Shown one piece after another: positions 1-9,024 of a stretch of DNA of 9,024 bases. The translations under genes were made by a program, and so were the position numbers. Origin of the DNA: Naegleria gruberi (taxonomy: Eukaryota); assembly GCA_000004985.1 (NCBI GenBank), contig GG739050.1; one strand, 5' to 3'. The notes under the pieces were generated by a model, which was not told the DNA's origin, did not search any database, and was given only the letters and a program-made list of their open reading frames with translations. The stretch's first letter is position 1, and each line of letters begins with the position of its first letter.

Positions 1-43
1 ATAAGTAATCGACAATAAACGTTCATATTGTTCTTCACAAACT

Positions 44-112
44 CTCTCAGTGTGCGTGTGAGAGCAGCGGAGGTGAGAGTGTTGTTTGTGATTGTTGTGT
101 AATAAGGCTCCA
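44..112 (+). promoter_or_regulatory. GT-rich (CA-rich on the opposite strand) element with an internal inverted repeat (CTCTCA-9nt-TGAGAG, TGAGAG repeated), about 60-130 bp upstream of the profilin-like ATG. Candidate promoter element.
   Basis: Seen in sequence: 'caaactctctcagtgtgcgtgtgagagcagcggaggtgagagtgttgtttgtgattgttgtgt' is a G/T-rich island in otherwise AT-rich 5' flank. ctctca at ~46-51 pairs with tgagag at ~61-66. G-box/CA-rich elements are known promoter elements in dictyostelids, but this one is not verified. Confidence 0.3.
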
Positions 113-174
113 CATCATCACTCAACCACTTTTTTCTTATTAAAAAAAACAACCTCCTTAATTATTATACAAAA

Positions 175-588
175 ATGGCTTCTCTTCCATGGACTGCTTG
201 GGTTCAAGGTGCTTTGTTGGCTCCTCTTGCTCAATCTGGTGCTTCTGCTGTCTTGTTGATGGGTGCTGATGGAAGTATGTGGGGTTTGGCTGGTCAATGG
301 AATGTTTCTGCTCAAGAAGCTGCCACTTTGGCTAATGCTATTAAGACTAGTGCTGGTGCTCCAATTTCTTGCACTTTGGGTGGTGTTAAATTCATGGGTA
401 TGAGAGCTGATGACTCTGAATTTGTCTCCAATTCTACTCAAAAGACTTGTGTCTGTGGTCATATGTTGAAGAAGACCACCATTGTCGTTTGGGGTGCTTT
501 GGACCATGCCAGAAATATCAATGCTGCTGTCAGTAAGGTTGCTGAAGCTTTGGCTCAAGACCCATCTGTTGCTTCCCTCTTGAACTAA
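175..588 (+). CDS. Divergent profilin-family protein. 137 aa, complete, single exon.
   Basis: Clean ORF with aaaaATG start context and TAA stop. The protein carries profilin hallmarks: N-terminal W-x-x-W (LPWTAWV), 'GADGSMWG', the 'LGGVKFMGMRADD' block (compare yeast QKFMLLRADD and the GG.KYM of other profilins), and 'KKTTIVVWGALD' (compare KTGQALVVGIYD). Codon usage is strongly biased: Leu almost all TTG, Ala GCT, Gly GGT, Lys AAG, Arg AGA. G+C is about 46% by hand count. Confidence 0.8.
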   Translation: MASLPWTAWVQGALLAPLAQSGASAVLLMGADGSMWGLAGQWNVSAQEAATLANAIKTSAGAPISCTLGGVKFMGMRADDSEFVSNSTQKTCVCGHMLKKTTIVVWGALDHARNINAAVSKVAEALAQDPSVASLLN

Positions 589-759
589 ATTGTATAAAAC
601 AAAAATTTCAAAAAAAATAACAAATTCCCGAAAAATGACATTTTATTCATCCTCATCACTTTCTTTGTTCCGATTACGAGCTAAATAATTATTAATTTCA
701 TCTAATATTGGATCTAATATTTGTGTTAATTAACCAGAAGTCTGATCGTATATTGTTGC

Positions 760-765
760 AATAAA
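760..765 (+). promoter_or_regulatory. AATAAA hexamer, a possible poly-A signal for the profilin-like gene, about 170 nt after its stop.
   Basis: Seen in sequence: 'gcaataaaaactc'. No closer canonical hexamer after the stop at 586-588. Weak. Confidence 0.2.
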
Positions 766-861
766 AACTCTTCCGATCTTTTTTATCTTACAAGAATCAT
801 CATGCTAAAATTTAGAATATTTAAATTATTAATCAATACATTACATTAAACAACAACAAAC

Positions 862-1470
862 TTTCGGAACCAATTTCTTTATTGATTTGCAACATTTTAA
901 TATATAATGTATGAATATTGTATTAAAAATTACAAATTCAATTCAATCCGTAAAATATTCCTAATAAATATATTAAAAAAATTAAATCCATCAAATATTA
1001 TTATTAACTTGAATATTGAATAAAACGAGAAACAAAATTTCGGAAATAATTTCTTTAATGATTTGCATCATTTTAATATATAATTTATTATTAGTTGAGT
1101 TGAAATCACAAATTTCATTCAATCCGTAAAATATTCCTAATAAATATATTAAAAAAAATTAAATCCATCAAATATTATTTTTAAACTAAAAAAAGAATAC
1201 ATTAATTTTAAAAGTTTCGGAATTAATTTCTTTAATGATTTGCAACATTTTAATATATAATTTATTATTAGTTGAGTTGAAATCACAAATTTCATTCATT
1301 CCGTAAAATATTCCTAATAAATATATTAAAAAAAATTAAATCCATCAAATATTATTATTAACTTGAATATTGAATAAAACGAGAAACAAAATTTCGGAAA
1401 TAATTTCTTTGATGATTTGCAACAATGTAATATTGTTAATTATTATATTGGATTTAAAATTACAAATTTC
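862..1470. repeat. Tandem array of a ~177-bp AT-rich unit. Three full copies plus a diverged partial fourth, sitting directly upstream of the Asn-rich gene.
   Basis: The anchor 'tttcgg' recurs at 862, 1038, 1215 and 1392, giving periods of 176, 177 and 177 bp. Units 2 and 3 are near-identical over 'tttcggaa(a/t)taatttctttaatgatttgca(a/t)cattttaatatataatttattattagttgagttgaaatcacaaatttcattca(a/t)tccgtaaaatattcctaataaatatattaaaaaaaattaaatccatcaaatatt'. Unit 1 shares both ends but has a different middle. Unit 4 is truncated and diverges into the promoter. Confidence 0.85.
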
Positions 1471-1508: not shown

Positions 1509-3080
1509 ATGAATGAAGACAATCAAGAAGTAGTGAGTGAAGACAGTCAAGAAGTTATGTCTGAAGAAGAACAATCAATCCAGCCAAATCCACCATCCAA
1601 TAACAAAAATTCGGATGAGAAAATCGGATCATCTGTGTTTGTAGTAGGAGTTTCTTCTGATGATATAGATAATTTACTAGAAATTCCTTTTGAAAAGTTG
1701 ATAGAAGTTGATCAAACAACTGATAAAGCAAAGGACTTCAAGATGAAAATAGATAATTTGAACAAAATAACAACTCCAGAGAAAGAAACGCAAGATGAAG
1801 AGCAATCATCAACTTCCATATTACCAACAGAAGAACAATTAACCGATGAAGAAACAGCAAGCAACTCAATTACAACAAAACAGGCAACAAAAAAACAAGC
1901 TAACAAAAGAGGAAGAAAGAAGAAAGAAGAGAAACCAGCAACAGAACTAAGAAGATCACACAGGTTACAAAAAAAACAAGTAAATTACGAAGAGGATGAG
2001 GATGATGATGATGTTGAAGAAGAACCAGAACCCCAAACAAAGAAAACAAAACCAAATACTGAAGAAAAGAAAAATTTAAATTCTAAAATTAATGATTACA
2101 TTGAACCTGTTCAGAAATCAACATTTGCAAGTGCAAGTGGTAGTAATAATTCTAATAGTAATAATAATATTAATTCCAATAATAACAATTATAATAATAA
2201 TTTTAATAATTTAATTAATAATAATTGTAATAATTATAATTGTAATTTGAACAATAACAATTTAAATAATAATTGCAATAATTTAAATAATAATTTCAAT
2301 AATAATTGCTATAGTTTTAATAATAATTTAAATAATTTTAATAATAATTATAATAATTGTAATAACAATATTTATAATAATTTTAATAATAATAATTTTA
2401 ATAATAATTTAAATTATAATTCAAATAATAATAATAATAATTGTAATAATAATTTAAATAATAATAATTTAGATAATAGTAATAATTATTCAGATAATAA
2501 TTATAACAACAATTTTAATAATCATTTTAATAATCATTTTAATAATCATAATTACAATTATTATAATAACAATAATAATAATTTTAATAATAATCACAGA
2601 AATATCAATAATAATTATAATAATAATTTTAATAATAATTTTAATAATAATTATAGAAATTCTATAATATATAATAATAATATTAATAATAATAACAACG
2701 ATAATTATTATTTTAATAATAATTTTCCTCATTATTATACTAATGAGTTTAATAATAATATGATCAGGCCAATTAATTTCAATCCAATTAATAATGGAAT
2801 TAGTGAAAAATATTTAGATGATCTTTTATTTCGTTTATTAAATGATGCCACAATAGAATCCACAATCAAAACTACAATAAGCAAACTTCTTTCCACAAAA
2901 ATAGAAGATTCAATAAGCAACAATTTTACAAAATTATTAGCAACTCCTAACAATAATTTGCCTATTAATTCACGCAATCATTATTCTATCCTTTCCGATG
3001 CTATTTTGTTGTGTAATAATAATAATAACAAACAAATTATTATGCAGCTTTTGATGAAAATTTTAAGAGAACAACAATAA
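1509..3080 (+). CDS. Asn-rich low-complexity protein. 523 aa, complete, apparently single exon. It has an acidic N-terminus, a basic cluster (KKQANKRGRKKKEEK, NLS or AT-hook-like), a D/E run, a ~200-aa Asn domain punctuated by Y/F/C/L/I/H, and a ~110-aa non-repetitive C-terminal domain.
   Basis: Uninterrupted ORF with start context 'gaaaaaaATGaat' and a TAA stop overlapping AATAAA. Codon usage is AT-rich (AAT, AAA, TTA, AGA, GGA, ACA), like the other low-bias genes in the window. The antisense ORFs inside it are low-complexity artefacts. Confidence 0.8.
   Translation: MNEDNQEVVSEDSQEVMSEEEQSIQPNPPSNNKNSDEKIGSSVFVVGVSSDDIDNLLEIPFEKLIEVDQTTDKAKDFKMKIDNLNKITTPEKETQDEEQSSTSILPTEEQLTDEETASNSITTKQATKKQANKRGRKKKEEKPATELRRSHRLQKKQVNYEEDEDDDDVEEEPEPQTKKTKPNTEEKKNLNSKINDYIEPVQKSTFASASGSNNSNSNNNINSNNNNYNNNFNNLINNNCNNYNCNLNNNNLNNNCNNLNNNFNNNCYSFNNNLNNFNNNYNNCNNNIYNNFNNNNFNNNLNYNSNNNNNNCNNNLNNNNLDNSNNYSDNNYNNNFNNHFNNHFNNHNYNYYNNNNNNFNNNHRNINNNYNNNFNNNFNNNYRNSIIYNNNINNNNNDNYYFNNNFPHYYTNEFNNNMIRPINFNPINNGISEKYLDDLLFRLLNDATIESTIKTTISKLLSTKIEDSISNNFTKLLATPNNNLPINSRNHYSILSDAILLCNNNNNKQIIMQLLMKILREQQ
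2143..2760 (+). repeat. Coding low-complexity tract built from a degenerate (AAT)n / 12-mer 'aataataattNt' microsatellite. It encodes the N-rich domain.
   Basis: Seen in sequence: long runs of aat aat aat interrupted by t-N-t codons (tat, ttt, tgt, tta/ttg, att, cat). Short higher-order repeats such as 'aat cat ttt aat' occur three times in a row at 2521-2556. Confidence 0.8.
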
Positions 3081-3245: not shown

Positions 3246-3429
3246 CTAATTGTGTGATGGTGGTCTCATAATTTGAACATGAACAGTAGATCTTTCTTCA
3301 TAATCACCTGGATCATTTTCAAACATTGGTGGATACTTCCTCTGGAATCCATATTCCACTTTGAATCCTCTCTCTGTGGCCAATTTAAATAAATTCATAT
3401 CTTCCTTAATCAACCAAGGTCGGTGATGT
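3246..3429 (-). CDS. Terminal exon of a Methyltransf_16/METTL21-like protein-lysine methyltransferase gene. It encodes the last 61 aa plus the TAG stop (...S|HHRPWLIKEDMNLFKLATERGFKVEYGFQRKYPPMFENDPGDYEERSTVHVQIMRPPSHN*).
   Basis: Minus-strand reading after the intron. The ORF is open from the acceptor (tatttAG|acatcaccg) to TAG (rc of cta at 3246-3248). Its reading phase matches a phase-2 junction (tc|a = Ser). The 'Y-x-HHRPW...F...A...GF' stretch is the usual C-terminal continuation after motif III/IV in this methyltransferase family. The ORF track does not list it because the upstream exon ends in an in-frame TAA created by the donor. Confidence 0.65.
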
Positions 3430-3513
3430 CTAAATATTATTAAAATTATTATTTAATTATTATTAATAATAATATTATACAATAAGTACTATTTGAAATT
3501 AACAATTACTTAC
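3430..3513 (-). other. 84-bp spliceosomal intron (phase 2) in the methyltransferase gene. GTAAGT donor, tatttAG acceptor, about 90% A+T.
   Basis: On the minus strand the upstream exon ends '...tat tc' and is followed by 'GTAAGTaattgtt...aataatatttAG'. Unspliced, the reading is tcg TAA, an immediate stop. Spliced, it restores a 61-codon ORF with family-typical residues. Confidence 0.65.
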
Positions 3514-3823
3514 GAATATCCGACATAAATCAAAGTATTAGGATGTGACAAATATTCACAACTGTCCAACAATTGAGAATGACAAAAATGATTGAACAAC
3601 AAGTCACTCAACAGAATGATATCAAAAGTTTCCTTCTCCTCTCCTTTTCCGAATGTTTGTTCTAATTTTTCACCCCAAGCATGTCCTCTCACTTCCATCA
3701 CAGTGTTATCTTCATCAAAATTCAATGCAACATTCCTCTTGAGATTTGGAATTAAATCTCCATCATCAATATCGGTAATAATAACCTTCTTGGCTCCGAG
3801 TTTGCCACAAGCTAAACTTGGAA
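3514..3823 (-). CDS. Internal/5' exon of the same methyltransferase gene, partial, with its upstream end lost in the assembly gap. It encodes ...PSLACGKLGAKKVIITDIDDGDLIPNLKRNVALNFDEDNTVMEVRGHAWGEKLEQTFGKGEEKETFDIILLSDLLFNHFCHSQLLDSCEYLSHPNTLIYVGYS.
   Basis: Class-I SAM-methyltransferase motifs of the Methyltransf_16 family: the motif I tail 'GKLGAKKVIITD' (compare ...LGAxKVxxTD), 'LIPNLKRNVALN', 'AWGE', and motif 'FDIILLSDLLF' (compare FDxIxxSDxxY). The N-terminal part, including GxGxG and the start codon, is hidden in the N run. Confidence 0.75.
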
Positions 3824-6800
3824 NNNNNNNNNNNNNNNNNNNNNNNNNNNNNNNNNNNNNNNNNNNNNNNNNNNNNNNNNNNNNNNNNNNNNNNNNNNNN
3901 NNNNNNNNNNNNNNNNNNNNNNNNNNNNNNNNNNNNNNNNNNNNNNNNNNNNNNNNNNNNNNNNNNNNNNNNNNNNNNNNNNNNNNNNNNNNNNNNNNNN
4001 NNNNNNNNNNNNNNNNNNNNNNNNNNNNNNNNNNNNNNNNNNNNNNNNNNNNNNNNNNNNNNNNNNNNNNNNNNNNNNNNNNNNNNNNNNNNNNNNNNNN
4101 NNNNNNNNNNNNNNNNNNNNNNNNNNNNNNNNNNNNNNNNNNNNNNNNNNNNNNNNNNNNNNNNNNNNNNNNNNNNNNNNNNNNNNNNNNNNNNNNNNNN
4201 NNNNNNNNNNNNNNNNNNNNNNNNNNNNNNNNNNNNNNNNNNNNNNNNNNNNNNNNNNNNNNNNNNNNNNNNNNNNNNNNNNNNNNNNNNNNNNNNNNNN
4301 NNNNNNNNNNNNNNNNNNNNNNNNNNNNNNNNNNNNNNNNNNNNNNNNNNNNNNNNNNNNNNNNNNNNNNNNNNNNNNNNNNNNNNNNNNNNNNNNNNNN
4401 NNNNNNNNNNNNNNNNNNNNNNNNNNNNNNNNNNNNNNNNNNNNNNNNNNNNNNNNNNNNNNNNNNNNNNNNNNNNNNNNNNNNNNNNNNNNNNNNNNNN
4501 NNNNNNNNNNNNNNNNNNNNNNNNNNNNNNNNNNNNNNNNNNNNNNNNNNNNNNNNNNNNNNNNNNNNNNNNNNNNNNNNNNNNNNNNNNNNNNNNNNNN
4601 NNNNNNNNNNNNNNNNNNNNNNNNNNNNNNNNNNNNNNNNNNNNNNNNNNNNNNNNNNNNNNNNNNNNNNNNNNNNNNNNNNNNNNNNNNNNNNNNNNNN
4701 NNNNNNNNNNNNNNNNNNNNNNNNNNNNNNNNNNNNNNNNNNNNNNNNNNNNNNNNNNNNNNNNNNNNNNNNNNNNNNNNNNNNNNNNNNNNNNNNNNNN
4801 NNNNNNNNNNNNNNNNNNNNNNNNNNNNNNNNNNNNNNNNNNNNNNNNNNNNNNNNNNNNNNNNNNNNNNNNNNNNNNNNNNNNNNNNNNNNNNNNNNNN
4901 NNNNNNNNNNNNNNNNNNNNNNNNNNNNNNNNNNNNNNNNNNNNNNNNNNNNNNNNNNNNNNNNNNNNNNNNNNNNNNNNNNNNNNNNNNNNNNNNNNNN
5001 NNNNNNNNNNNNNNNNNNNNNNNNNNNNNNNNNNNNNNNNNNNNNNNNNNNNNNNNNNNNNNNNNNNNNNNNNNNNNNNNNNNNNNNNNNNNNNNNNNNN
5101 NNNNNNNNNNNNNNNNNNNNNNNNNNNNNNNNNNNNNNNNNNNNNNNNNNNNNNNNNNNNNNNNNNNNNNNNNNNNNNNNNNNNNNNNNNNNNNNNNNNN
5201 NNNNNNNNNNNNNNNNNNNNNNNNNNNNNNNNNNNNNNNNNNNNNNNNNNNNNNNNNNNNNNNNNNNNNNNNNNNNNNNNNNNNNNNNNNNNNNNNNNNN
5301 NNNNNNNNNNNNNNNNNNNNNNNNNNNNNNNNNNNNNNNNNNNNNNNNNNNNNNNNNNNNNNNNNNNNNNNNNNNNNNNNNNNNNNNNNNNNNNNNNNNN
5401 NNNNNNNNNNNNNNNNNNNNNNNNNNNNNNNNNNNNNNNNNNNNNNNNNNNNNNNNNNNNNNNNNNNNNNNNNNNNNNNNNNNNNNNNNNNNNNNNNNNN
5501 NNNNNNNNNNNNNNNNNNNNNNNNNNNNNNNNNNNNNNNNNNNNNNNNNNNNNNNNNNNNNNNNNNNNNNNNNNNNNNNNNNNNNNNNNNNNNNNNNNNN
5601 NNNNNNNNNNNNNNNNNNNNNNNNNNNNNNNNNNNNNNNNNNNNNNNNNNNNNNNNNNNNNNNNNNNNNNNNNNNNNNNNNNNNNNNNNNNNNNNNNNNN
5701 NNNNNNNNNNNNNNNNNNNNNNNNNNNNNNNNNNNNNNNNNNNNNNNNNNNNNNNNNNNNNNNNNNNNNNNNNNNNNNNNNNNNNNNNNNNNNNNNNNNN
5801 NNNNNNNNNNNNNNNNNNNNNNNNNNNNNNNNNNNNNNNNNNNNNNNNNNNNNNNNNNNNNNNNNNNNNNNNNNNNNNNNNNNNNNNNNNNNNNNNNNNN
5901 NNNNNNNNNNNNNNNNNNNNNNNNNNNNNNNNNNNNNNNNNNNNNNNNNNNNNNNNNNNNNNNNNNNNNNNNNNNNNNNNNNNNNNNNNNNNNNNNNNNN
6001 NNNNNNNNNNNNNNNNNNNNNNNNNNNNNNNNNNNNNNNNNNNNNNNNNNNNNNNNNNNNNNNNNNNNNNNNNNNNNNNNNNNNNNNNNNNNNNNNNNNN
6101 NNNNNNNNNNNNNNNNNNNNNNNNNNNNNNNNNNNNNNNNNNNNNNNNNNNNNNNNNNNNNNNNNNNNNNNNNNNNNNNNNNNNNNNNNNNNNNNNNNNN
6201 NNNNNNNNNNNNNNNNNNNNNNNNNNNNNNNNNNNNNNNNNNNNNNNNNNNNNNNNNNNNNNNNNNNNNNNNNNNNNNNNNNNNNNNNNNNNNNNNNNNN
6301 NNNNNNNNNNNNNNNNNNNNNNNNNNNNNNNNNNNNNNNNNNNNNNNNNNNNNNNNNNNNNNNNNNNNNNNNNNNNNNNNNNNNNNNNNNNNNNNNNNNN
6401 NNNNNNNNNNNNNNNNNNNNNNNNNNNNNNNNNNNNNNNNNNNNNNNNNNNNNNNNNNNNNNNNNNNNNNNNNNNNNNNNNNNNNNNNNNNNNNNNNNNN
6501 NNNNNNNNNNNNNNNNNNNNNNNNNNNNNNNNNNNNNNNNNNNNNNNNNNNNNNNNNNNNNNNNNNNNNNNNNNNNNNNNNNNNNNNNNNNNNNNNNNNN
6601 NNNNNNNNNNNNNNNNNNNNNNNNNNNNNNNNNNNNNNNNNNNNNNNNNNNNNNNNNNNNNNNNNNNNNNNNNNNNNNNNNNNNNNNNNNNNNNNNNNNN
6701 NNNNNNNNNNNNNNNNNNNNNNNNNNNNNNNNNNNNNNNNNNNNNNNNNNNNNNNNNNNNNNNNNNNNNNNNNNNNNNNNNNNNNNNNNNNNNNNNNNNN

Positions 6801-7548
6801 NNNNNNNNNNNNNNNNNNNNNNNNNNNNNNNNNNNNNNNNNNNNNNNNNNNNNNNNNNNNNNNNNNNNNNNNNNNNNNNNNNNNNNNNNNNNNNNNNNNN
6901 NNNNNNNNNNNNNNNNNNNNNNNNNNNNNNNNNNNNNNNNNNNNNNNNNNNNNNNNNNNNNNNNNNNNNNNNNNNNNNNNNNNNNNNNNNNNNNNNNNNN
7001 NNNNNNNNNNNNNNNNNNNNNNNNNNNNNNNNNNNNNNNNNNNNNNNNNNNNNNNNNNNNNNNNNNNNNNNNNNNNNNNNNNNNNNNNNNNNNNNNNNNN
7101 NNNNNNNNNNNNNNNNNNNNNNNNNNNNNNNNNNNNNNNNNNNNNNNNNNNNNNNNNNNNNNNNNNNNNNNNNNNNNNNNNNNNNNNNNNNNNNNNNNNN
7201 NNNNNNNNNNNNNNNNNNNNNNNNNNNNNNNNNNNNNNNNNNNNNNNNNNNNNNNNNNNNNNNNNNNNNNNNNNNNNNNNNNNNNNNNNNNNNNNNNNNN
7301 NNNNNNNNNNNNNNNNNNNNNNNNNNNNNNNNNNNNNNNNNNNNNNNNNNNNNNNNNNNNNNNNNNNNNNNNNNNNNNNNNNNNNNNNNNNNNNNNNNNN
7401 NNNNNNNNNNNNNNNNNNNNNNNNNNNNNNNNNNNNNNNNNNNNNNNNNNNNNNNNNNNNNNNNNNNNNNNNNNNNNNNNNNNNNNNNNNNNNNNNNNNN
7501 NNNNNNNNNNNNNNNNNNNNNNNNNNNNNNNNNNNNNNNNNNNNNNNN
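3824..7548. other. Assembly gap of 3,725 consecutive N. No sequence information.
   Basis: Seen directly. The ORFs 3592-7722(+), 3812-7594(-), 3818-7582(+) and most of 3510-8297(-) are read-through artefacts (poly-X). Confidence 0.99.
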
Positions 7549-8270
7549 ACGTATGCAAGTCCTTCATTACCAAGCCAATTAACGGAAATACCAAGATTGG
7601 TCAATTGTTTCAATTCACTTAAATATTTTGCTCCTTCAACACCAACACTATTTTCAGCAATAAATAGAGTGGTCAATTGGTTCAATTCACTTATATATTT
7701 AGATCCTTTAGCACCAATATGATTGCCATAAATATTAAGAGTGGTTAATTGTTTCAATTCACTTAGGTATTTAGCTCCAATATGAAAAATATTATGACTA
7801 CGAATATCAAGATTGGTCAATTGTTTCAATTCGCTAATATATCTAACTCCCTCACCACGAATTTGACTGCCATATATATGAAGACTTTTTAATTGTTTCA
7901 ATTCACTTAGATGATGAACTTCTTCTTCTTCAATTCTAATAACAAGTTTAGTTAGTGATTTCATCAAGATTAATTTTTTAAAAGTATCCTCACTCGTTGC
8001 ATTAACTTTAAGAGTTGCAATATTCTGTAAAAATTGGCCACTCATTTCGACACCAAATTTACAATTCGAATCAAGATTATTACATGTTGATAAAATAACA
8101 TTGTACCACTGTTTGGATACCAATGCACAATGCAAGACAATAAAATTAAAATCTTCAAAGAAGGAAATAATTTCATATATAATGTCATTGTGAAATTTAT
8201 AGTCTTGTGCTACGTTCATCATCAACAAGTCCTTTGAAAGTTGTGATTTACATGTTGTGAGTTTTTCCAT
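7549..8270 (-). CDS. F-box/leucine-rich-repeat protein, N-terminal ~240 aa. The 3' remainder is lost in the gap. There is an F-box-like motif near the N-terminus and at least five 24-aa RNI-type LRRs (LSELKQLTNLDIRSHNIFHIGAKY...).
   Basis: The preferred start is the ATG at 8270 ('tcattaaaaaaaATGgaaaaactc' -> MEKLTTCKSQ...). The ORF-track start at 8297 is a TTG. The F-box-like segment is 'DIIYEIISFFEDFNFIVLHCALVSKQWYNVI', with the conserved hydrophobic spacing and the S/C-K-x-W of F-boxes. It is followed by repeated 'LSELKQL(T/K)(N/S/T)L-I-G--IG--G-KY' units. Codon usage (TTA/TTG, CGT/AGA, GGT) matches the neighbouring low-bias genes. Confidence 0.75.
7590..7925 (-). repeat. 72-bp periodic coding repeat (24-aa LRR units) with high nucleotide-level identity. 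Five copies are visible and the array continues into the gap.
   Basis: Plus-strand 'ggtcaattgtttcaattcactt' and variants recur at 7599, 7671, 7743 and 7815, with '..taattgtttcaattcactt' ending at 7895. The period is exactly 72 bp. The sequence right at the gap edge (7549-7590) still encodes LRR-like ...GISVNWLGNEGLAY. Confidence 0.85.
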
Positions 8271-8424: not shown

Positions 8425-9024
8425 CTATTTATTGGAAGAGTTTACTAAGGCTCTCCTTGAGAAGCTTGTTAGTTTTCTCCACTTTTTATCATAGCCACCA
8501 CATACGACCATCAAGTGCTCGCTCCAACTTCCAAATTCGTACACACTTTCTTCATCAGTGGATGGTAGGCAACTTCTTGGATATTGAACTACATCCATGC
8601 ATAGAATTCTATCTCCCACAGAGGATTGAGAAATTGGTTTGAAAGATATTGGATCCCAAAATCTAACAACTCCATCAAAACCACTGGAAATTATTGATCT
8701 ACCGCATGATGGCTCATACATGATAGTATTCATCAGTTTACCACTTGCTGGTATAGAGTAAACTGGATCTTGTTTAAATTGTTCAGGATTGGAATCTGTT
8801 TGTTTGGCAGCAATAGTTTGACTAATATTTCTTAAATCCCAAACGTTAATCAAACCATCCACACCACCAGTAACCAAATTAATACCATTGTATGGATTGA
8901 ATGAGCAATTGAGTACCTCCTTGACATGGTGAACAAGGTTGGCCACCAACAAGCCAGTTCTTAAATCCCATAATTTGACAATACCATTCATATCAGTTGT
9001 ACACAATAATCCTCCATCAGGATA
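8425..9024 (-). CDS. WD40-repeat protein, C-terminal ~199 aa. The gene continues beyond the window end, and the stop TAG is at 8425-8427.
   Basis: Open minus-strand frame from the window edge ([26 protein letters not shown]...). It has repeated WD signatures: 'IVKLWDL', 'LINVWDL', 'VVRFWDP', each preceded by G/D-rich strands (TGGVDG, SSGFDG). The ORF-track 'start' at 9006 is a TTG and not a real start. Confidence 0.75.

What the first reader, a model, noticed from the sequence alone, without database searches (positions are those of the whole stretch)
175..588. Profilin-family gene is a sharp composition and codon-usage island
The 414-bp ORF is about 46% G+C by hand count, against roughly 20% in its flanks. 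It uses a nearly fixed codon set (Leu TTG, Ala GCT, Gly GGT, Lys AAG, Arg AGA, Val GTT/GTC, Pro CCA, Thr ACT/ACC). The other four genes in the window use TTA, AAA, GGA, ACA, and CGT alongside AGA. Such bias usually marks very highly expressed genes, and profilins are abundant. However, the TTG/AAG/AGA preference is not the pattern I would expect even for highly expressed dictyostelid genes, which favour TTA/CTT, AAA and CGT. So either the host has an unusual optimal-codon set (ciliate-, yeast- or anaerobic-fungus-like), or this gene has a different evolutionary history from its neighbours.
Basis: partly seen in the sequence, partly recalled or inferred. Interest (0 to 1): 0.55.

Follow-up and report, generated by a model that had tools for sequence, protein, structure and literature searches.

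The report
Codon-optimised profilin gene in Naegleria gruberi
The "island" is an ordinary gene of the amoeba Naegleria gruberi that encodes a fast-evolving second profilin; its alanine/glycine-rich protein makes it look GC-rich, it uses Naegleria's own preferred codons, and nothing points to a foreign origin.

Summary
The numbers are largely right. The ORF at 175-588 is 45.7% G+C, followed by 19.5% G+C downstream. It is a Pfam profilin and its codon bias is strong (Nc 28.7 against 32-43 for the neighbours).

The reading needs correcting in three ways.

1. The host is Naegleria gruberi, not a dictyostelid. The ORF is 100% identical to an N. gruberi protein.

2. The GC "island" comes from amino-acid composition. 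GC at codon positions 1/2/3 is 0.52/0.53/0.34. GC3 is close to that of the ordinary neighbouring genes. Re-encoding the protein with the neighbours' codon frequencies predicts 45-46% G+C.

3. TTG/AAG/AGA/GCT/GGT/CCA/ACT/GTT is Naegleria's own preferred codon set.
- The canonical N. gruberi profilin gene uses it just as strictly (Nc 28.1).
- So do the canonical profilin genes of N. lovaniensis and of Naegleria-like metagenome contigs.
- It is also the one-codon-per-amino-acid set that a published N. fowleri codon optimisation chose.
- The window's other genes already favour TTG and AGA.

The protein nests inside the heterolobosean profilins (100% bootstrap), in a paralogue clade with N. fowleri, N. 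lovaniensis, Willaertia and a metagenome relative (94%).

Verdict: ordinary codon selection on a vertically inherited gene. Low interest. The expression level itself was not measured.

The parts
175..588 (+). Complete single-exon coding sequence (137 aa plus TAA) of a divergent profilin paralogue of Naegleria gruberi. The public NCBI model covers only residues 4-104 (101 aa, marked 'partial').
   Evidence: ORF. Pfam Profilin, E 6e-17. 100% identity to NCBI 'predicted protein, partial [Naegleria gruberi]'. The N-terminus MA[ST]LPWT aligns with the N. lovaniensis and N. fowleri orthologues. AlphaFold2 model with pLDDT 89.8 and pTM 0.84. The top 40 or so Foldseek hits in the PDB are all profilins; 1acf scores E 3e-8 with TM 0.72/0.79.
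118..558 (-). Antisense 'shadow' ORF (146 aa). It is not a gene but a by-product of the codon bias.
   Evidence: Listed. It is in exact codon register with the sense frame (556-558 is sense codon 128). In that register, antisense stops would be the reverse complements of TTA, CTA and TCA. The sense gene uses none of these three codons.
1..174 (+). 5' flank (35% G+C). It contains a GT-rich stretch at about 47-100 and an A-rich start context, acaaaaATG. The function of the GT-rich stretch is unknown.
   Evidence: Sequence; composition. The other Naegleria-type profilin genes have the same A-rich context before the ATG, but no longer motif is shared.
589..854 (+). AT-rich 3' flank or untranslated region, running up to the 177-bp tandem array. 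It provides the sharp downstream drop in G+C.

Best explanation
ORF 175-588 is a nuclear, vertically inherited gene of Naegleria gruberi. It encodes a lineage-specific, fast-evolving profilin paralogue.

It stands out from its surroundings for two ordinary reasons.

(a) Naegleria intergenic DNA is very AT-rich, and this protein is rich in Ala, Gly, Val and Leu. Codon positions 1 and 2 are therefore about 52% G+C, while position 3 stays at the local coding level of about 34%.

(b) Its synonymous codons are drawn almost entirely from Naegleria's own preferred set: TTG, AAG, AGA, GCT, GGT, GTT/GTC, CCA, ACT/ACC, TCT, CAA, GAA. This is what selection on codon usage produces in heavily expressed genes.

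Shown here: the organism, the family and fold, the placement within heterolobosean profilins, the origin of the G+C excess, and the identity of the codon set with that of other Naegleria genes.

Inferred, not shown: that the gene is highly expressed in N. gruberi, that the preferred codons match abundant tRNAs, and that the protein binds G-actin and poly-proline ligands as canonical profilins do.
For: Organism:
- 100% identity over 101 aa to an N. gruberi protein located on a 941,567-bp contig.

Family and fold:
- Pfam PF00235, 62.4 bits; phmmer hits to solved plant and Acanthamoeba profilins.
- Confident AlphaFold2 model whose best PDB matches are profilins.

G+C excess explained by the protein:
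- GC1/2/3 are 0.52/0.53/0.34.
- G+C expected from the neighbours' codon frequencies is 0.45-0.46, against 0.457 observed.

Same codon set in the host's own genes:
- An ENA contig (L009) encodes exactly the N. gruberi canonical profilin XP_002682897.1. That gene has Nc 28.1, G+C 0.427, GC3 0.318 and flanks of 0.24-0.30. Its codons are TTG 9/9, AAG 7/8, GCT 11/12, GGT 15/17, ACT 7/8, CAA 7/7, and AGA for its single Arg.
- Canonical profilin genes of N. lovaniensis (Nc 32) and of metagenome contigs (Nc 28-29) use the same set.
- The published N. fowleri codon-optimised PAC and eYFP genes, designed from that species' codon-usage table (PMC12845041), use one codon per amino acid: TTG, AAG, AGA, GCT, GGT, GTT, CCA, ACT, TCT, CAA, GAA. 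The window gene matches 79% of these choices, and its neighbours 52-71%.
- Among 26 non-profilin genes in Naegleria-type loci, stronger bias goes with more use of this set (Spearman -0.51, p 0.008).
- PMC11702301 reports that low-ENC genes tend to be the most highly expressed in N. clarki and Willaertia magna.

Vertical descent:
- An exhaustive HMMER search finds only nine proteins at E<=1e-3. The top six, the query's own partial model included, are Naegleria, Willaertia or a Naegleria-like metagenome contig. The host's canonical profilin scores 1e-12. The four remaining hits score about 1e-4 or weaker: the two that were named are from a green alga and a sea urchin, one is an unnamed ENA contig, and one (P0006) was not looked up.
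- Neighbour-joining tree: heterolobosean profilins 100%; paralogue clade 94%; N. gruberi + (N. fowleri, N. lovaniensis) 94%.
- The paralogue sits directly upstream of a three-repeat Myb gene in N. lovaniensis, N. fowleri, Willaertia and the metagenome contig.
Against: - No expression data for this gene were available, so high expression is inferred from the codon bias alone.
- No N. gruberi ribosomal-protein genes or tRNA genes could be retrieved. The N. gruberi genome is not in the contig index, and no tRNA genes lie in the window or in the nine loci scanned (L001-L009).
- The only direct N. gruberi reference gene is another profilin.
- The orthologues are less biased: N. lovaniensis Nc 36.7, N. 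fowleri 38.8, and Willaertia uses TTA for 6 of 8 Leu. The strength of the bias is therefore specific to N. gruberi and is not explained.
- The profilin-Myb synteny seen in four relatives is absent from the window.
- The coding strand is T- and G-rich (T3 55%, GC skew +0.27, AT skew -0.38). A mutational contribution cannot be excluded.
Confidence: 0.87

Rival explanations
1. The gene has a separate evolutionary history (horizontal or viral acquisition), and its codon usage still reflects a donor.
For: It looks different from its four window neighbours in G+C and Nc. It is not next to the Myb gene that flanks its relatives in other species. It is only about 34-37% identical to the host's canonical profilin.
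Against: GC3 equals the local coding level. The codon set is the host genus's own. The nearest relatives are exclusively Naegleria, Willaertia and a Naegleria-like contig, and the host's canonical profilin is the next best hit. The clade branches in species-tree order with 94% support, and the heterolobosean profilins are monophyletic at 100%. Orthologues are syntenic across four relatives.
Confidence: 0.02
2. The bias is mainly mutational (transcription-associated strand asymmetry enriching T and G on the coding strand) rather than selection for translationally optimal codons.
For: T3 is 55% and A3 only 12%. GC skew is +0.27 and AT skew -0.38 over 201-400.
Against: The preferences are codon-specific rather than base-specific. 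A-ending codons are the exclusive or main choice for Gln (CAA 6/6), Glu (GAA 3/3), Arg (AGA 2/2) and Pro (CCA 3/4). They are avoided for Leu, Lys, Ala, Gly, Thr, Val and Ser. The same codon-by-codon pattern recurs in unlinked canonical profilin genes of several species.
Confidence: 0.08
3. The pattern is an artefact: a chance ORF or a contaminating sequence in the assembly.
For: The public gene model is only partial. The window contains a 3.7-kb run of N.
Against: There is a significant Pfam hit and a confident profilin fold. Conserved orthologues exist in three other sequenced genomes. The flanks and neighbouring genes are typical of an AT-rich Naegleria genome.
Confidence: 0.01

Closest known systems
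Canonical Naegleria profilin (132 aa; N. gruberi XP_002673381.1 / XP_002682897.1; N. pringsheimi PROF_NAEPR, Q6QNF8)
   Same: Same Pfam family and same size class; also single-exon. Same extreme codon bias and the same preferred codons (Nc 28.1 against 28.7). Same appearance of a G+C island between AT-rich flanks. Sister clade in the tree.
   Different: Only about 34-37% identical. The paralogue evolves much faster: 55% identity between N. gruberi and N. lovaniensis, against 83% for the canonical protein. The C-terminal helices differ...AEALAQDPSVASLLN here...VADSLVNAGTLQ in the canonical protein.
Orthologues of the paralogue: N. lovaniensis XP_044546641.1, N. fowleri XP_044563896.1, Willaertia magna KAL9642602.1, and JGI metagenome protein P0003
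   Same: Same paralogue clade (94% bootstrap). The N-terminal motif MA[ST]LPWTxWVQGALLAP is shared with N. lovaniensis and N. fowleri. The UniRef entries for N. lovaniensis and N. fowleri are named 'Profilin'.
   Different: They lie upstream of a three-repeat Myb gene; the window gene does not. Their codon bias is weaker (Nc 36.7-38.9), and Willaertia uses TTA. The N. lovaniensis and N. fowleri proteins end in the typical profilin ...EYL, whereas the N. gruberi protein does not.
Translationally selected, highly biased genes of yeast-type codon preference (the classic S. cerevisiae highly expressed gene set: TTG, AAG, AGA, GCT, GGT, CCA, ACT/ACC, GTT/GTC). This comparison rests on general knowledge, not on a test here.
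   Same: Nearly the same list of preferred codons, and the same signature of low Nc without raised GC3.
   Different: The organism is a heterolobosean amoeboflagellate, so the resemblance is convergent. Unlike yeast, the two-fold T-ending codons (AAT, GAT, CAT, TAT) remain common.
nf-profilin of N. fowleri (150 aa, cyst-enriched; PMC11868499)
   Same: Another Naegleria profilin-family gene without introns. It shows that the genus has several profilin isoforms with stage-specific expression.
   Different: A different protein: 150 aa, and 83% identical to an N. gruberi protein annotated 'profilin'. It was not recovered by searches with the window protein.

Membership tests
Profilin (Pfam PF00235) | Sequence matches the family HMM above the curated gathering score | tested here: met
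   62.4 bits against a cut-off of 25, E 6e-17, covering profile positions 3-124 of 127.
Profilin (Pfam PF00235) | Profilin fold: N- and C-terminal helices packed on one face of a central antiparallel beta-sheet | tested here: met
   AlphaFold2 pLDDT 89.8, pTM 0.84. Secondary structure is H6-19, seven strands, H109-127 and H130-136. The top 40 or so Foldseek hits in the PDB are profilins, with TM 0.6-0.8. This is a prediction, not an experimental structure.
Profilin (Pfam PF00235) | Aromatic platform for poly-L-proline binding: N-terminal Trp and Tyr, the Trp of strand 2, and the C-terminal-helix Tyr | tested here: inconclusive
   W6, W9 (in place of Tyr) and W36 align with W3, Y6 and W33 of Arabidopsis profilin. 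W6 and W36 are invariant in the heterolobosean alignment. The C-terminal ...EYL present in the N. lovaniensis and N. fowleri orthologues is replaced by ...AQDPSVASLLN in N. gruberi. The roles of these residues come from established knowledge of solved profilin-poly-proline complexes.
Profilin (Pfam PF00235) | Binds monomeric actin 1:1 and promotes nucleotide exchange | not testable with these tools
   The GGxK[FY]MG motif (K72 and G75 invariant) is retained.
Horizontally acquired (foreign) gene | Synonymous-site composition or codon set differs from the host's own genes, including its highly biased ones | tested here: not met
   GC3 is 0.336, against 0.22-0.31 for the ordinary neighbours and 0.318 for the canonical N. 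gruberi profilin. The preferred codons are identical.
Horizontally acquired (foreign) gene | Phylogeny places it outside the host lineage, or it is absent from sister species | tested here: not met
   Heterolobosean profilins are monophyletic at 100%, and the paralogue clade has 94% support in species-tree order. Orthologues exist in N. fowleri, N. lovaniensis and Willaertia. Caveat: a neighbour-joining tree with only five outgroup sequences.
Translationally selected, highly expressed gene | Low effective number of codons, significantly below expectation for its composition | tested here: met
   Nc 28.7 against a simulated 39.6 +/- 5.0. Fop 0.76 against a null maximum of 0.57 in 10,000 simulations.
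Translationally selected, highly expressed gene | Preferred codons are those of the organism's reference highly expressed genes (ribosomal proteins and the like) | tested here: inconclusive
   Met against the canonical profilin of N. gruberi and of relatives, and against the published N. fowleri optimised codon set. Ribosomal-protein genes of N. gruberi could not be obtained.
Translationally selected, highly expressed gene | High mRNA or protein abundance, and a match between preferred codons and tRNA supply | not testable with these tools
   No expression data or tRNA gene set were accessible. No tRNA genes lie in the window or in the nine loci scanned, L001-L009.

The most novel reading that the evidence does not exclude
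Vahlkampfiid amoebae (Naegleria and Willaertia) carry a second, rapidly evolving profilin paralogue. It has not been described experimentally, so far as my limited searches show. In N. gruberi specifically, this paralogue has left its conserved position next to a Myb gene, has lost the C-terminal ...EYL motif, and has become as codon-adapted as the canonical profilin. This would suggest that it is an abundant, functionally specialised isoform there (for example stage-specific, or with altered poly-proline binding).
Probability: 0.3. Interest if true: 0.25.

Novelty: already known. Interest (0 to 1): 0.1.

Why it matters
It matters mainly as a calibration point. In very AT-rich protist genomes, a short gene for an Ala/Gly-rich, codon-optimised protein looks like a compositional island although its GC3 is normal. 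GC1/2/3 and the host's own biased genes should be checked before a foreign origin is proposed.

There are two minor practical results. The public N. gruberi gene model (101 aa, partial) can be extended to a complete 137-aa ORF. The data also outline a profilin paralogue clade in Naegleria and Willaertia, which could interest people who study the Naegleria actin cytoskeleton.

Tried and rejected
- Retrieving N. gruberi genomic DNA around the gene. The look-up of encoding contigs has no record for the N. gruberi models P0001 and P0004, nor for the window's poly-Asn protein. The upstream neighbour and N. gruberi ribosomal-protein genes therefore could not be examined.
- The 'Ribosomal_S30 (weak)' gene on metagenome contig L001. 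It is not a cytosolic ribosomal protein and is unbiased, so I did not use it as a reference.
- Getting an N. fowleri housekeeping sequence through the PDB (6NLX for GAPDH, 5U2I for NDK, taken from PMC7990177). The tools cannot return those sequences, so I dropped the idea. I ran no further search on a low-odds attempt.
- Literature on codon usage in Naegleria. The held text of Lai et al. 1988 contains no codon-usage statement. One multi-term search returned irrelevant papers. 'Profilin' matches in two Naegleria papers were only reference-list entries or the word 'profiling'.
- A shared promoter motif between this gene and other Naegleria profilin genes. Only the A-rich start context is shared.
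- tRNA genes in the window and in loci L001-L009: none found.
- Synteny of the window's downstream genes with the orthologous loci: no matches.
- The first bootstrap run gave spuriously low support because clades were compared on arbitrarily rooted trees. I replaced it with a bipartition count.

Full report
**What is there**

The window is AT-rich eukaryotic DNA. It carries a 3,725-base run of N at 3824-7548.

ORF 175-588 on the + strand encodes 137 residues. It matches Pfam Profilin (PF00235) at E 6e-17 and 62.4 bits, against a cut-off of 25. It gives only weak hits to solved plant and Acanthamoeba profilins (best E 2e-5), so it is a divergent family member.

An AlphaFold2 model built on an 11-sequence alignment is confident (pLDDT 89.8, pTM 0.84). 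Its best matches among solved structures are profilins. Acanthamoeba profilin 1acf scores E 3e-8 with TM 0.72/0.79.

**Organism**

The ORF is 100% identical over 101 residues to an NCBI protein, 'predicted protein, partial [Naegleria gruberi]', on a 941,567-bp contig. The host is therefore the heterolobosean amoeboflagellate N. gruberi.

The public model lacks both ends. The window shows a complete ORF. Its N-terminus, MASLPWT, aligns with the MATLPWT of the N. lovaniensis and N. fowleri proteins.

**Checking the observation**

- The G+C figures hold for the ORF (45.7%) and for the downstream spacer (19.5%). The upstream 174 bases are 35%.
- The listed codon preferences are correct.
- The bias is real. 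Nc is 28.7, against 31.7-42.7 for the other coding pieces. The same protein simulated with the neighbours' codon frequencies gives 39.6 +/- 5.0.

Two parts of the description do not hold.

1. The G+C excess is not at synonymous sites. GC1/GC2/GC3 are 0.518/0.526/0.336. The ordinary neighbours have GC3 of 0.22-0.31. Re-encoding the protein with neighbour codon frequencies predicts a total G+C of 0.450-0.462, against 0.457 observed. The 'island' comes from a protein with 25 Ala and 12 Gly, set in a genome with very AT-rich spacers.
2. The neighbours are not on a different codon system. Pooled, they use TTG 36 against TTA 33, and AGA for 21 of 30 Arg codons. The profilin gene pushes the local preferences to the extreme. 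It does not reverse them, apart from AAG over AAA.

**Is this the host's own optimal codon set?**

The N. gruberi genome is not in the contig index, so its ribosomal-protein genes could not be retrieved. Four other lines of evidence were available.

1. An ENA metagenome contig (L009) encodes a protein identical to the N. gruberi canonical profilin XP_002682897.1.
   - That gene has Nc 28.1, G+C 0.427 and GC3 0.318, between flanks of 0.24-0.30.
   - It uses TTG 9/9, AAG 7/8, GCT 11/12, GGT 15/17, ACT 7/8, CAA 7/7, and AGA for its single Arg.
   - Its appearance and its codon list are those of the window gene. A 91%-identical contig (L008) behaves the same way.
2. The two tandem canonical profilin genes of N. 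lovaniensis (Nc about 32) and the canonical genes on two Naegleria-like metagenome contigs (Nc 28-29) use the same set. In all of them TTG is 90-100% of Leu codons, AAG 78-100% of Lys and ACT 95-100% of Thr. Background genes of these loci already have TTG and AGA as the commonest Leu and Arg codons.
3. A 2025 paper codon-optimised PAC and eYFP for N. fowleri from that species' codon-usage table (PMC12845041).
   - The deposited sequences use one codon per amino acid: TTG, AAG, AGA, GCT, GGT, GTT, CCA, ACT, TCT, CAA, GAA.
   - The window gene matches these choices at 79% of its codons, and its neighbours at 52-71%.

I also defined an optimal set from the canonical N. gruberi-type profilin genes alone. 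Against it the window gene has Fop 0.76. The null is 0.42 +/- 0.04, with a maximum of 0.57 in 10,000 simulations.

PMC11702301 reports that low-ENC genes tend to be the most highly expressed in N. clarki and Willaertia. Its authors read this as translational selection.

**Is selection or mutation the cause?**

The preferences are codon-specific rather than base-specific.
- A-ending codons are preferred for Gln, Glu, Arg and Pro.
- G-ending codons are preferred for Leu and Lys.
- T-ending (and some C-ending) codons are preferred for Ala, Gly, Thr, Val and Ser.

This argues for selection on particular codons rather than a simple strand-mutation bias. The coding strand is, however, T- and G-rich, so some mutational contribution cannot be excluded.

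**Evolutionary history**

An exhaustive HMMER scan of 1.84 billion representative proteins finds only nine with E <= 1e-3. Names were obtained.
- The query's own partial model.
- The N. lovaniensis / N. fowleri orthologue (58% identity, E 7e-35).
- A protein on a JGI metagenome contig (E 6e-18).
- The N. gruberi canonical profilin (E 1e-12).
- A Willaertia magna protein (E 1e-8).
- Four weak hits at about 1e-4 or worse. Two are named, from a green alga and a sea urchin. One is an unnamed ENA contig, and one (P0006) was not looked up.

A neighbour-joining tree with bipartition bootstraps gives:
- 100% for heterolobosean profilins against the five outgroups;
- 100% for the canonical clade;
- 94% for the paralogue clade (N. 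gruberi, N. fowleri, N. lovaniensis, the metagenome protein, Willaertia);
- 94% for N. gruberi + (N. fowleri, N. lovaniensis), which is the species order.

In N. lovaniensis, N. fowleri, Willaertia and the metagenome contig, the paralogue lies directly upstream of a three-repeat Myb gene. The paralogue is therefore old and vertically inherited.

It also evolves fast. N. gruberi and N. lovaniensis are 55% identical for the paralogue, against 83% for the canonical profilin.

**Loose ends**

- The window lacks the Myb neighbour. The next gene is a poly-Asn protein with no counterpart in the other loci. The upstream side could not be seen.
- The strength of the bias is specific to N. gruberi. The orthologues have Nc 36.7-38.9, and the Willaertia gene prefers TTA.
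- The N. gruberi protein has lost the C-terminal ...EYL that N. lovaniensis and N. fowleri keep.
- Together these allow a modest hypothesis: the isoform is more abundant or more specialised in N. gruberi. Nothing here tests it.
- Expression, tRNA supply, and actin and poly-proline binding are all inferred.

**Verdict**

The finding is explained as ordinary codon selection acting on a vertically inherited, Ala/Gly-rich profilin paralogue in an AT-rich genome. The gene and its family assignment are already in public databases, and the codon preference is already in practical use for Naegleria. Interest is low.

Noticed in passing
window 855-1470: A 177-bp unit is repeated 3.5 times in tandem (84% matches, about 17% G+C). 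It lies in the spacer between the profilin gene and the next gene. Each unit contains ...TTTCGGAAnnAATTTCTTTAATGATTTGCA.... Function unknown.
   Followed up: no
window 1509-3080 (+): A 523-aa ORF with acidic and basic N-terminal parts and an Asn-rich low-complexity tract of about 195 codons (2144-2759, G+C 6-8%). It has no Pfam hit and no counterpart next to the profilin paralogue in other species. A 24-bp unit is repeated 2.5 times at its start (1508-1567).
   Followed up: partly
window 3824-7548: A run of 3,725 N (assembly gap or masked stretch). It cuts two minus-strand genes: a Methyltransf_16 lysine methyltransferase (3246-3824) and an F-box/LRR protein (7549-8270).
   Followed up: no
window 3246-3824 (-): The Methyltransf_16 gene has an 84-nt GT...AG intron at 3430-3513. 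Joining the exons gives a continuous reading frame (...YVGYS|HHRPWLIKEDM...).
   Followed up: yes
window 8425-9024 (-): The 3' part of a WD40-repeat gene runs off the end of the window. It has the highest GC3 of the neighbours (0.31).
   Followed up: no
window 175-588 versus NCBI model P0001: The public N. gruberi protein for this locus is a 101-aa partial model (residues 4-104). The window supports a complete 137-aa ORF with an ATG and a TAA.
   Followed up: yes
L005 10001-15108; L006 10001-15416; L010 10001-13469; L001 3145-7185: The gene order profilin paralogue -> three-repeat Myb gene is conserved in N. lovaniensis, N. fowleri, Willaertia magna and a JGI metagenome contig. An adenylate kinase gene lies further downstream in three of the four. 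None of this is present in the N. gruberi window.
   Followed up: partly
L002 8853-9251 and 10001-10399: N. lovaniensis has two canonical profilin genes in tandem, 750 bp apart. N. gruberi has two near-identical canonical copies on different scaffolds, P0004 and P0011.
   Followed up: no
window 47-100: A GT-rich, relatively G+C-rich stretch (gtgtgcgtgtgagagcagcggaggtgagagtgttgtttgtgattgttgtgt) lies about 75-130 bp upstream of the start codon. No equivalent was found upstream of the other profilin genes.
   Followed up: partly
protein P0006 (from; no locus): A 382-aa protein of unknown origin has two profilin-like stretches separated by a charged linker. It hit the query weakly (E 2e-4).
   Followed up: no
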